From the IMG/VR virus record IMGVR_UViG_3300037424_000434, positions 160,001-224,000 of that record: a stretch of DNA of 64,000 bases. The stretch is one strand, 5' to 3'. Shown here piece by piece: positions 37,676-52,140 of the stretch (position 1 is its first letter; every line of letters starts with the position of its first letter). The notes under the pieces were generated by a model that did not search any database, had not been told where the DNA came from, and saw only the letters and a program-made list of their open reading frames with translations. The translations under genes were made by a program, and so were the position numbers. Source of the stretch: a virus (taxonomy: Duplodnaviria; Caudoviricetes).

Positions 37676-37730
37676 ATAGCAAGGTAAAGGAGGGTTTGAT
37701 TCCCTCCATGTCCCCACTAAGGAGAATTAT

Positions 37731-37880
37731 ATGGATGATTCACAGTTTTATAGAAAAATTAATGATCGTTCATGTAACAGTTCTACGTATCATAAGAAGG
37801 ATGGAACATCCGTTAGATCAAAATTGAAAGAGGAATTGAAAAAAATAAAAAAAGAGCTTGACAAAGAGGAATTGGTTTGA
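37731..37880 (+). CDS. 49-aa hypothetical protein
   Basis: MDDSQFYRKINDRSCN...; AAGGAG RBS. Confidence 0.5.
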   Translation: MDDSQFYRKINDRSCNSSTYHKKDGTSVRSKLKEELKKIKKELDKEELV

Positions 37881-38273: not shown

Positions 38274-38402
38274 GTTTTGGATAGTAGTTTAAATGACGAA
38301 GAACGTGCCCTTTAATATGGGCAAAGTGAGGAAAGTACCTCGTAAATCGCAGTACAGAAATGTACGCCGTGTTTAGGGAAACCGCCCTCCTATCCAAAAC
38401 CA
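38274..38402 (+). ncRNA. Unassigned structured RNA candidate
   Basis: 11-bp closing stem gttttggatag/ctatccaaaac, four internal hairpins, ends ACCA. Confidence 0.5.
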
Positions 38403-38407
38403 GTTTT

Positions 38408-38482
38408 GTCTCATTCGACTAGGGGTTAGGTCATTAGCCTCTCAAGCTAAAAACATGGGTTCGATTCCCATATGAGACACCA
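38408..38482 (+). tRNA. tRNA-Glu(CTC)
   Basis: Cloverleaf with CCA. Confidence 0.9.
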
Positions 38483-38569
38483 ATTGGAACAATGGCACGG
38501 TGATGGATGGTCTGTCTTGGTTGGATAAACATGAGTTCAGAGAAGAAAGAAAAAATAAGGAAATAGTTG

Positions 38570-38598
38570 TTGACAATGAGTGTGAGTTCTGATATACT
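38570..38598 (+). promoter_or_regulatory. Sigma70 promoter, TTGACA class
   Basis: TTGACA-N17-TATACT with TG extension. Confidence 0.8.
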
Positions 38599-38612
38599 CT
38601 ACTCAAGTCAAA

Positions 38613-38791
38613 ACCTCTCCAACGCAGAGAACGAATCGTAAACGTTGGAAACCAAAGTCTATGACAGTTAGAGGTCTGTTATCTAGTCAAGTTAAAATGA
38701 AAGTTGTGTTCATGGGTGCAGCACATTAAATCGCTTGGGGCCAACGTGGCGAATTCGAATAGTCATATAAAAACGAGAGCTTTCATTTTAA
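38613..38791 (+). ncRNA. Two closed structured domains, unassigned
   Basis: acctct/agaggt + ccaacg/cgttgg; 14-bp ttaaaatgaaagtt/agctttcattttaa. Confidence 0.4.
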
Positions 38792-38799
38792 ACATTTTG

Positions 38800-38876
38800 G
38801 GGGTAGGGCACAGGTTGGCATCTGGTCTTGTCTGTAAAACAACGCAAATACGGTTCGATTCCGTGCTACCCCACCA
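38800..38876 (+). tRNA. tRNA-Tyr(GTA), short variable arm
   Basis: ggggtag/ctacccc, loop CTGTAAA, CCA. Confidence 0.75.
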
Positions 38877-39134
38877 ATTTAAATGGTAAAAACAGGTAAC
38901 ATTCTGGTTTAGCTAACCAAAATAAATCCTGTCTATAATTTGATGACCGGTTAAATCAGATTATTAAGCGTTTGCCCCTAGAGTCGATAAAGGGGTAACA
39001 ATTTAAATGGTAAAAACAGGTAACATTCCGGTTTAGCTGGCCAAAAATAAATCCTGTCTATAATTTGATGACCGGTTAAATCAGATTATTAAGCGTTTGC
39101 CCCTAGAGTCGATAAAGGGGTAGCAATTTAAATG
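38875..39134 (+). repeat. Tandem duplication of a 124/125-nt three-hairpin element (ncRNA candidate)
   Basis: Copies start 38875 and 38999, 11-nt third start at 39124; differences mostly keep pairing via G-U. Confidence 0.9.
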
Positions 39135-39139
39135 TATAT

Positions 39140-39314
39140 GCTCCCGTGTAGAAATATGGCCAACACGAGAAAAAATATCCCATTCATGAGGGGATTACAG
39201 TAACGTGAAGGACTCTAGCCCGGACTCGAAAGGCGCATCAAGCGAAGGTGAACGGTTATCTGGGATAGTTGATAGCAACTATAATTGCTGGTTCGAAGCC
39301 AGCCGGGGGCTCCA
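39140..39314 (+). ncRNA. tRNA-like RNA with ~100 extra nt
   Basis: Acceptor gctcccg/cgggggc, T-arm gctgg-ttcgaag-ccagc, U-CCA end, internal CAT-loop hairpin. Confidence 0.65.
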
Positions 39315-39454
39315 ATTTGTGGGTACCAAATAAAGAGTGCTTTGTCAACCACGGAGAAAGACATGAAACAAGAAATTAATCAAGAAGAACTGGAAAAAAT
39401 GGAGACGTGAAAAATGGATTGAATACGCATCGGTTCGCGTAACTTTGGAGCGCC

Positions 39455-39709
39455 TTGTTATGGCGCGGAGGTAGGGAAGTGTTAAGTAAAAATCAAATGA
39501 AGGCATTAAAGGAATTAACCGCAGCCTTCAAAAAGTGTAAAGCGGTAAATATTTCTTTCTGCGGGATGGACTGCGATCTTCTTGCGTATGATCGAGAAGA
39601 ATTAAGCTCTCAAGAAAAAGAGTTGGGTGGTCTTCACGAAGCGCAAGGAAAATGTGACCATGAAATAGTTAATACGCATGGGACATATTTAGACAGCGGA
39701 GGCTGGTGA
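39455..39709 (+). CDS. Hypothetical protein
   Basis: 84 aa in track; true start probably 39479 or later. Confidence 0.5.
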   Translation: MLWRGGREVLSKNQMKALKELTAAFKKCKAVNISFCGMDCDLLAYDREELSSQEKELGGLHEAQGKCDHEIVNTHGTYLDSGGW

Positions 39710-40453: not shown

Positions 40454-40670
40454 AACAGGTAAACGCTCTAAAGAACATGAGAATGGGTTGGGAGTAATAT
40501 TCCGTAACGGATTACCTGACCACTAGGCTACCCATCTAGACCCTTTATTGGGATAAATCATGTCACCTGTTTACACTACAGTTATAGATACTGTATTATA
40601 AGATTCGTGGGGGATTAGCCCACGAATGCATAGGCATAAGGTTTAAGCCCTTGCAATGACGGGCTCAAAT
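40454..40670 (+). ncRNA. Unassigned structured RNA candidate
   Basis: aacaggt/acctgtt closed domain plus three consecutive hairpins. Confidence 0.5.
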
Positions 40671-40703
40671 CAACTAGCTTAGACCGATTTTTTAAGAATT
40701 TAC

Positions 40704-40775: not shown

Positions 40776-40838
40776 TTGACATGTAATAAATATCTCCCTA
40801 TCTCTATTTATAATAGTTCGATATTTATTACATGTCAA
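40776..40838. repeat. Perfect 19-bp inverted repeat with 25-nt spacer
   Basis: ttgacatgtaataaatatc / gatatttattacatgtcaa. Confidence 0.95.
40805..40838 (-). promoter_or_regulatory. Antisense promoter candidate
   Basis: Minus strand TTGACA-N17-TATTAT overlapping minus-strand TATAAATA. Confidence 0.45.
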
Positions 40839-40941
40839 TATATTATACTACATGTTTGAAAGGTACGCACTTTGGGTTGCACCCTATAGCGTTTTAACTA
40901 CTTGCCGAGCAGGGCTTTTCAACTTTCAAACAATTTTTTAT

Positions 40942-42554: not shown

Positions 42555-42695
42555 AAATTTCGGTGTCGTAAATTAGAGTTACTTCGTCTTCTAAACGAGT
42601 GGTCGCTGGTTCGAATCCAGCCAAGATCCCCAAAAAGGTCTTGTAGCTCAGCGGTAGAGCACTAAATCTCTCTGATTGATTGTTACCCGAAATTT
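42555..42695 (+). ncRNA. yrlA: YrlA-type Y RNA (circularly permuted tRNA-like domain)
   Basis: Order anticodon-like arm, T-arm, acceptor 3' strand, loop, acceptor 5' strand, D-arm, all inside a 5'/3' terminal bulged stem. Confidence 0.8.
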
Positions 42696-52057: not shown

Positions 52058-52140
52058 AATGACGGTGGCGTAGAACAGGGATACTTCACATGACGAAAAG
52101 ACACCTTGCTCGTTTGATCCCCTGATTTGTAATTAACATT
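52058..52140 (+). ncRNA. Second Y-like RNA without tRNA-like domain
   Basis: ggtggcgtagaacagggatacttc resembles YrlA 5' ggtgtcgtaaattagagttacttc; cagggat/atcccctg stem. Confidence 0.55.

What the first reader, a model, noticed from the sequence alone, without database searches (positions are those of the whole stretch)
38875..39134. Tandem-duplicated 124-nt three-hairpin RNA with pairing-preserving changes and a Y-like core
Seen: two copies separated by the same caatttaaatg spacer that follows tRNA-Tyr. The differences include ggtt/aacc to ggtt/ggcc and ttgcccct/aggggtaa to aggggtag, which keep the stems via G-U pairs. The first domain (aaaaacagg-taacattc-[hairpin]-taaat-cctgt) echoes the YrlA and 52058 pattern (ag-agttacttc...ctaaat-ctct). 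Inference: a functional, dosage-amplified ncRNA, possibly a third Y-like variant with two extra 3' hairpins.
Basis: partly seen in the sequence, partly recalled or inferred. Interest (0 to 1): 0.68.

Follow-up and report, generated by a model that had tools for sequence, protein, structure and literature searches.

The report
Duplicated orphan spacer RNA after tRNA-Tyr
A 236-kb uncultured phage carries, right after its tyrosine tRNA gene, two near-identical 124/125-base non-coding units that are probably cut out of the tRNA precursor as small hairpin RNAs; they show no tested hallmark of a Y RNA, have no relatives anywhere I searched, and their function cannot be settled from sequence.

Summary
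The tandem duplication is real. An 11-nt spacer occurs exactly three times (38875, 38999, 39124), bounding a 124-nt and a 125-nt copy that differ at five positions.

The copies lie on the tRNA strand, between tRNA-Tyr and a 175-nt tRNA-like RNA, downstream of a near-consensus sigma-70 promoter. They hold no ORF of 30 aa or more.

Copy 1 folds into three well-defined hairpins. Copy 2's changes halve the predicted probability of the first domain. The "pairing-preserving" changes are three one-sided A-to-G transitions, with no statistical weight from two sequences.

The Y-like reading fails:
- no Rfam hit;
- the published Ro motif is absent;
- a profile of the 24-nt motif shared by this genome's four Y-like RNAs does not find the units even at E = 1000.

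The element is an orphan. It has no third copy in the genome and no credible match in 20 related loci or in the viral, metagenome or genome collections, so covariation cannot be tested.

Best reading (about 0.5): a duplicated transcribed spacer RNA released with tRNA-Tyr. It is analogous, not homologous, to the E. coli RtT repeats after tRNA-Tyr and to T4 RNA C/D. A neutral duplication is the main rival. Interest is low to moderate. The scan noted this same stretch once before, in an overlapping window.

The parts
38570..38598 (+). Near-consensus sigma-70-type promoter (11 of 12, extended -10) that would drive tRNA-Tyr, both units and the 175-nt tRNA-like RNA
   Evidence: no terminator-like site on the + strand in 38300-39500
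38800..38876 (+). tRNA-Tyr (GUA) with encoded CCA; its last two bases open the first spacer copy
   Evidence: 84-87% identical tRNA-Tyr in relatives
38875..38885 (+). Spacer copy 1 (11 nt, A/T-rich): the tRNA-Tyr trailer and proposed endonuclease site
38886..38998 (+). Unit 1 body: about 6 nt of unpaired A-rich 5' sequence (38886-38891; about 15 nt if the 5' end lies at the proposed cut in the preceding spacer), then P1 38892-38932 (5-bp base, 4x4 internal loop, apical hairpin), P2 38935-38964 (10 bp, 10-nt loop with a self-complementary 8-mer) and P3 38972-38998 (8 bp, 11-nt loop)
38999..39009 (+). Spacer copy 2
39010..39123 (+). Unit 2 body: P1 39016-39057 (weakened, apical hairpin in a shifted register), P2 39060-39089, P3 39097-39123
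39124..39134 (+). Spacer copy 3 (the partial third repeat), followed 5 nt later by the next RNA gene
39140..39314 (+). Context: 175-nt tRNA-like RNA with a 7-bp acceptor, T-arm and CCA, followed by a similar A/T-rich trailer
   Evidence: read from the sequence; earlier notes seen

Best explanation
The two units are a duplicated internal transcribed spacer of a polycistronic phage pre-tRNA.

Proposed mechanism (inferred, not shown):
1. Transcription from the promoter at 38570-38598 runs through tRNA-Tyr, unit 1, unit 2 and the 175-nt tRNA-like RNA.
2. A host RNase E-type endonuclease cuts in each single-stranded A/U-rich spacer. This is the same cut that frees the 3' end of tRNA-Tyr.
3. Two RNAs of about 124 nt are released. 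Each has an A-rich 5' tail and three hairpins, and the G+C-rich P3 protects the 3' end from exonucleases.

The duplication most likely arose by unequal recombination or slippage between two copies of the 11-nt spacer that already flanked a single unit.

What the released RNAs do is unknown. I take them to be stable by-product or accessory RNAs of the tRNA operon, of the same kind as the E. coli RtT repeats and T4 RNA C and D. They are not Ro60-binding Y RNAs.
For: - The units lie on the same strand as all 28 RNA genes of the array.
- There is a strong promoter upstream and no terminator-like site.
- No ORF of 30 aa or more lies on either strand across 38890-39204.
- The spacer has the form of the other inter-RNA spacers of this array: CCA, then 5-14 A/T-rich nt, then the next 5' end.
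- The spacer is identical after tRNA-Tyr and after each unit.
- Copy 1 has three hairpins with pair probabilities of 0.9-1.0, each better than shuffles at z -2.5 to -2.9.
- The same architecture exists in E. coli K-12: tRNA-Tyr followed by 3.1 copies of a 178-bp unit at 95% identity. That array overlaps the last 19 nt of the tRNA, and each unit holds an RtT element.
- In T4, tRNA-Arg is followed directly by rnaD and rnaC. Their roles are still unknown (PMC3014915; PMC9697503).
- Relatives L010 and L011 carry a different structured 214-nt non-coding segment in the same slot (z -3.2).
Against:
- There are no homologues, so no covariation and no evidence of purifying selection.
- Copy 2's substitutions weaken domain 1, which looks more like drift than conservation.
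- The whole-unit folding z-scores are ordinary for this array.
- The RNase E site is inferred from the general A/U-rich single-strand preference of that enzyme (my own knowledge), and the host is unknown.
Confidence: 0.5

Rival explanations
1. Neutral, recent duplication of non-functional spacer DNA. The hairpins are incidental features of A/T-rich spacer sequence, and the RNA is degraded after tRNA processing.
For: The element is absent from every relative examined. The slot after tRNA-Tyr is hypervariable among relatives: a 214-nt gap or a 144-150-aa ORF. Copy 2's fold is degraded. The z-scores are not exceptional.
Against: All three hairpins individually beat shuffles in copy 1. The differences are clustered rather than spread (p about 0.02), leaving 79 identical nt over P2 and P3. 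Phage genomes rarely keep useless tandem repeats for long (general knowledge).
Confidence: 0.3
2. A self-pairing RNA module. The 8-nt self-complementary stretch in the P2 loop lets the two units (or two released RNAs) kiss, or form a 10+8+10-bp extended duplex. That duplex would serve as a dimerisation element or as an RNase III processing site in the precursor.
For: In the fold of the tandem, P2 of unit 1 pairs with P2 of unit 2: MFE -69.1 against -54.6 kcal/mol for the separate units. Cofolding predicts about -14 kcal/mol for every dimer combination. P2 is identical in both copies.
Against: A self-complementary stretch of this kind occurs in a random 10-nt loop with probability 0.06-0.09. 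Any duplicated hairpin can swap arms in silico, and co-transcriptional folding favours local hairpins. No experiment exists.
Confidence: 0.07
3. A divergent Y-like RNA that binds the phage Ro60 through domain 1.
For: The phage encodes Ro60/TROVE, RtcB and Rnl2 and at least four Y-like RNAs, one of them in the same array. Domain 1 has a 4x4 internal loop that resembles the loop next to the basal stem of the array's YrlA, by eye.
Against: There is no YrlA hit at E up to 10. The published 5' motif (PMC4201824) is absent. The genome-specific 24-nt Y motif profile finds only the four known loci (18.7-21 bits), and the units are not among 59 hits at E up to 1000. Pairwise similarity to YrlA and to the 52-kb candidate is at shuffle level (z -0.35 and 0.6). 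There is no tRNA-like domain. P1 is an internal hairpin, not a terminal stem.
Confidence: 0.06
4. A DNA-level element. The 30-bp imperfect palindrome (P2) is a binding site for a dimeric protein, present twice about 12 helical turns apart.
For: P2 is a 10-bp inverted repeat around a palindromic core. The spacing of 125 bp is close to an integral number of turns.
Against: No other copy of P2, P1 or P3 exists in the 236-kb genome, even at 25% mismatch. There is no adjacent promoter to regulate, apart from weak minus-strand matches. The location is inside an RNA operon.
Confidence: 0.04
5. An assembly artefact: two alleles of one unit placed in tandem, or a miscounted copy number.
For: The record is a metagenome assembly. 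The copies share a 79-nt identical stretch, longer than common k-mer sizes.
Against: The unit-to-unit junction sequence can only be assembled if reads contain it. The five differences anchor both copies.
Confidence: 0.03

Closest known systems
E. coli tyrT-tyrV operon RtT repeats (Rfam RF00391; rttR)
   Same: A tRNA-Tyr gene is followed on the same strand by a tandem array of a 100-200-nt non-coding unit at 95-96% identity. The repeat phase reaches into the 3' end of the tRNA, so each unit ends like the tRNA and its trailer. Checked here on NC_000913: 178-bp unit, 3.1 copies, four RtT hits of 133-138 bits.
   Different: There is no sequence or structure homology: no RF00391 hit on the window at E up to 10. 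The overlap with the tRNA is 2 nt rather than 19. The unit is 124 nt rather than 178, with 2.1 copies, no small ORF like tpr, and a phage rather than a chromosomal setting.
Phage T4 RNA D and RNA C (species 2 and 1 RNAs)
   Same: Two adjacent small stable RNA genes (119 and 139 nt) lie directly downstream of a tRNA in the tRNA cluster of a T4-type phage, on the same strand, with function still unknown.
   Different: T4 rnaC has a tRNA-type T-arm and tRNA-like ends, and rnaC and rnaD are barely alignable to each other. The units here are 96% identical paralogues without any tRNA feature. The unit model finds nothing at the T4 genes.
YrlA / bacterial and phage Y RNAs (RF02553; Chen et al. 2014, PMC4201824; phiLo Yrl1/2, PMC12135203)
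   Same: The same genome encodes Ro60 and several Y-like RNAs, one of them in this array. Domain 1 has a short stem followed by an internal loop that looks similar by eye.
   Different: The units lack the 5' Ro motif, the genome-specific 24-nt motif, the terminal 5'/3' stem and the tRNA-like domain.

Membership tests
YrlA / Y RNA (RF02553) | Match to the Rfam covariance model | tested here: not met
   No hit on 38875-39134 at E up to 1, in the whole-genome search, or at E up to 10 on 38600-39330.
YrlA / Y RNA (RF02553) | Conserved Ro-binding motif near the 5' end (GNCGAA-type, PMC4201824), or its form in this genome's own Y-like RNAs | tested here: not met
   The motif was read and is absent from the unit. 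A 24-nt profile built from the four Y-like loci hits only those loci, and the units are not among 59 hits at E up to 1000.
YrlA / Y RNA (RF02553) | Stem formed by the 5' and 3' ends of the RNA, enclosing the rest | tested here: not met
   P1 closes only 41 nt and is followed by two further hairpins. By inspection, the flanks of P1 cannot extend the helix.
YrlA / Y RNA (RF02553) | tRNA-like domain (T- and D-arm mimics) | tested here: not met
   No tRNA or tRNA-clan hit in the units. No significant similarity to any tRNA of the array.
YrlA / Y RNA (RF02553) | Binding to Ro60 | not testable with these tools
   Needs EMSA or co-purification with the phage Ro60 (gene found).
RtT (RF00391) | Match to the Rfam covariance model | tested here: not met
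   No hit. The positive control on E. coli K-12 gave 133-138 bits.
RtT (RF00391) | Tandem repeat directly 3' of tRNA-Tyr, with the repeat phase overlapping the tRNA's 3' end | tested here: met
   here; for E. coli. This is architecture only and does not show homology.
T4 rnaC / rnaD | Sequence or structure similarity to the T4 genes | tested here: not met
   The unit model found only an E = 4.7 match elsewhere in the T4 locus, on the other strand.
T4 rnaC / rnaD | Small RNA genes adjoining a tRNA on the same strand in a T4-type tRNA cluster | tested here: met
T4 rnaC / rnaD | Accumulates as a stable processed RNA during infection | not testable with these tools
tRNA (RF00005) | Cloverleaf with acceptor stem and T-arm | tested here: not met
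   Not called by ARAGORN or Rfam. The 5' and 3' ends are not complementary.

The most novel reading that the evidence does not exclude
The unit is a small self-associating RNA. The self-complementary P2 loop makes the two tandem units (or the released RNAs) dimerise, giving either an RNA-only assembly or a 28-bp duplex that acts as a built-in RNase III processing or regulatory switch inside a phage tRNA operon. The divergent apical hairpins of domain 1 would give the two halves different specificities.
Probability: 0.06. Interest if true: 0.55.

Novelty: new variant of a known kind. Interest (0 to 1): 0.25.

Why it matters
If the units are released as stable RNAs, this phage would repeat, without homology, the odd architecture of the E. 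coli tyrT operon: tRNA-Tyr followed by tandem repeats ending like the tRNA. It would also add one more unexplained small RNA to the class of T4 RNA C and D, whose function has been open for fifty years.

That is of some interest for how tRNA operons generate extra RNAs. It does not open a new question, and nothing here can be tested without RNA data or closer relatives.

The practical result is negative. The element should not be counted as a third Y RNA type of this phage.

Tried and rejected
**Homologue searches (all negative)**
- blastn of 38780-39320 against GenBank phages: no match.
- Exact and gapped pattern scans of viral contigs for P2, domain 1 and P3: 0 hits each.
- A 20-mer of P2 in metagenome contigs: 2 hits, both inside a 333-aa ORF with no tRNA nearby, so chance.
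- P3 in genome contigs: 0 hits. A gapped domain-1 pattern: 4 hits in unrelated bacteria, about the number I estimated by chance from the collection's size. The best two reach only about 19-20 bits (E 0.003-0.005), driven by the seeded motif.
- Covariance model R1, built from the two copies. It found only the two copies in the genome. Nothing scored below E = 1 in six loci around Rnl2 homologues of 58-60% identity. Nothing scored below E = 0.2 in 14 more distant IMG/VR loci.
- Our earlier findings, searched by sequence: only this genome.

**Other ideas tested and dropped**
- Derived from tRNA-Tyr or another RNA of the array: local alignment scores are at shuffle level. The best was tRNA-Met at z 2.75 over a short stretch, one of 31 comparisons.
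- Antisense target in the phage genome: complementary 11- to 13-mers are no more frequent than for shuffled units.
- Late (T4-type) or sigma-70 promoter, or terminator, inside the unit: none on the + strand.
- Dispersed repeat or operator family: no other copy of any hairpin at up to 25% mismatch.
- Tiny ORF: a 9-codon frame starts at each spacer ATG, but the T-to-C difference is non-synonymous in it. By eye the only Shine-Dalgarno-like stretch lies 11 nt upstream, in the 3' strand of the preceding P3 (so none before unit 1), where pairing would hide it. I did not pursue this further.

**Not obtainable**

Full report
**Setting.** The window is bases 160001-224000 of a 235,765-bp IMG/VR virus record. 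Earlier notes of this scan describe it as an uncultured T4-like sediment phage. The window holds an array of 27 tRNA genes and a tmRNA, all on the + strand. An Rnl2 RNA ligase gene lies just upstream. The genome also encodes a Ro60/TROVE protein and RtcB.

**The observation.** Tandem Repeats Finder reports 38875-39134, period 125, 2.1 copies, 96% matches.
- The 11-nt spacer occurs without mismatch only at 38875, 38999 and 39124. Copy 1 is therefore 124 nt and copy 2 is 125 nt.
- The first spacer overlaps the terminal CA of the encoded CCA of tRNA-Tyr.
- The copies differ at five places: T38905/C39029, A38915-A38916/G39039-G39040, one extra A in the following A-run, and A38998/G39123.
- Four of the five lie within 15 nt, which random placement gives about 2% of the time.
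- The genome has no third copy by BLAST or by a covariance model. None of the three hairpin modules recurs even at 25% mismatch.
- No ORF of 30 aa or more crosses the units on either strand.

**Structure.**
- Copy 1 folds into three hairpins: P1 38892-38932, P2 38935-38964 and P3 38972-38998. Pair probabilities are 0.9-1.0. Each hairpin alone beats dinucleotide shuffles at z -2.5 to -2.9.
- In copy 2, domain 1 drops from -10.6 to -7.7 kcal/mol (z -0.9). Its basal stem probability falls to 0.54, and the apical hairpin is split between two registers, 0.23 and 0.32.
- In the shifted register preferred by copy 2 there is one double change (U-A to C-G) and one gained pair. With two sequences neither count has any statistical weight, since the shuffles reach it in 239-500 of 500 trials.
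- A transition at a paired position keeps pairing half the time, so three of three is p of about 0.125 (my arithmetic).
- Whole-unit z-scores (-2.5 and -0.9) are ordinary for this array: 11 of 63 spacer windows of 125 nt reach -2 or lower.

**The Y-like test.**
- Rfam gives no hit on the units at E up to 1 over 20 kb, nor at E up to 10 over 731 nt. The YrlA model does not find them in the whole genome.
- Chen et al. 2014 define a short conserved motif near the 5' end as the likely Ro contact (PMC4201824). The units lack it.
- The genome's own four Y-like RNAs are the array's YrlA, the candidate near 52.06 kb, and two upstream of Ro60. They share a 24-nt 5' block.
- An nhmmer profile of that block recovers only those four loci (18.7-21 bits). 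It does not list the units among 59 hits at E up to 1000.
- Local alignment of the unit to YrlA, to the 52-kb candidate and to every tRNA and tRNA-like RNA of the array stays at shuffle level.
- P1 is an internal 41-nt hairpin, not a stem made by the RNA's two ends, and there is no tRNA-like domain.
A loosened form of the motif occurs 326 times in the genome.

**Relatives.**
- Rnl2 homologues of 57-60% identity lead to six metagenome loci with the same gene order and a conserved tRNA-Tyr, 84-87% identical.
- After tRNA-Tyr these loci carry one of two things. L010 and L011 have an unrelated, well-structured 214-nt non-coding segment (z -3.2). L012 and L014 have a 144-150-aa ORF with a weak RNase H-like match.
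- The unit model finds nothing there, nor in 14 more distant IMG/VR loci.
- Pattern scans of the viral, metagenome and genome collections gave only chance matches.
- The element is therefore an orphan, and the slot after tRNA-Tyr is a variable cargo site in this phage group.

**Context and mechanism.**
- A near-consensus promoter lies at 38570-38598. No terminator-like site follows on the + strand.
- Throughout the array, adjacent RNA genes are separated by CCA plus 5-14 A/T-rich nucleotides. The 11-nt spacer is of this type and stands after tRNA-Tyr, unit 1 and unit 2 alike. The 175-nt tRNA-like RNA begins 5 nt after the third spacer.
- From this I infer that the units are transcribed within the pre-tRNA. 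I infer that they are released by the endonucleolytic cut that also frees the tRNA-Tyr 3' end, with P3 acting as a 3' protective hairpin.
- RNase E's preference for single-stranded A/U-rich sites is from my own knowledge. The host and its enzymes are unknown.
- An 11-nt direct repeat on both sides of a single ancestral unit would also explain the duplication, by unequal exchange.

**Closest known.**
- I checked the E. coli K-12 tyrT-tyrV locus directly. tRNA-Tyr is followed by 3.1 copies of a 178-bp unit at 95% identity. The array reaches 19 nt into the tRNA, and each unit holds an RtT element.
- In T4, tRNA-Arg is followed by rnaD and then rnaC. Their roles are still described as unknown (PMC3014915; PMC9697503).
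- The units resemble both in layout but match neither in sequence or model.

**A feature worth a bench test.**
- The P2 loop holds an 8-nt self-complementary stretch.
- In the fold of the tandem, the two P2 elements form a 10+8+10-bp duplex: -69.1 against -54.6 kcal/mol for the separate units. Cofolding predicts about -14 kcal/mol for any dimer.
- Such a loop arises by chance in 6-9% of random 10-nt loops, so this is a lead, not evidence.

**Verdict.** The duplication is real and the element is non-coding. It is probably a pair of spacer-derived small RNAs (about 0.5). A neutral duplication is the main alternative (about 0.3). The Y-like reading is not supported (about 0.06).

Noticed in passing
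window 42562-42585, 52064-52087; G000 93269-93246 (-) and 93046-93023 (-): The four Y-like RNAs of this genome share a 24-nt 5' block. As an nhmmer profile it hits only these four places in 236 kb (18.7-21 bits). This is a genome-specific candidate Ro60 contact and supports the 52-kb candidate as a true Y-like RNA.
   Followed up: partly
window 38570-38799: A near-consensus sigma-70 promoter with an extended -10 is followed by a 195-nt untranslated leader before tRNA-Tyr. In relatives L010-L014, tRNA-Tyr instead follows tRNA-Glu after 8-10 nt, so promoter plus leader is an insertion here. The leader's fold is unremarkable (z -0.5).
   Followed up: partly
window 40776-40941: Directly after tRNA-Pro lies a 19-bp perfect inverted repeat forming a 63-nt hairpin, followed by a second long stem. 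The fold scores z -6.8, the strongest structure signal among the array's spacers. Its nature is unknown.
   Followed up: no
window 40572-40696 and 37676-37800: Two further spacer windows have notable folding z-scores (-3.8 and -2.75). They may hold other small RNAs.
   Followed up: no
L011 2368-2581 (same in L010 11631-11844): Relatives carry an unrelated, well-structured 214-nt non-coding segment in the slot after tRNA-Tyr (z -3.2). It may be a different small RNA in the same position.
   Followed up: partly
L014 1895-2329; L012 11722-12174: Other relatives have a 144-150-aa ORF in the same slot. It gives a sub-threshold RNase H-like match (RVT_3, E 0.0012).
   Followed up: partly
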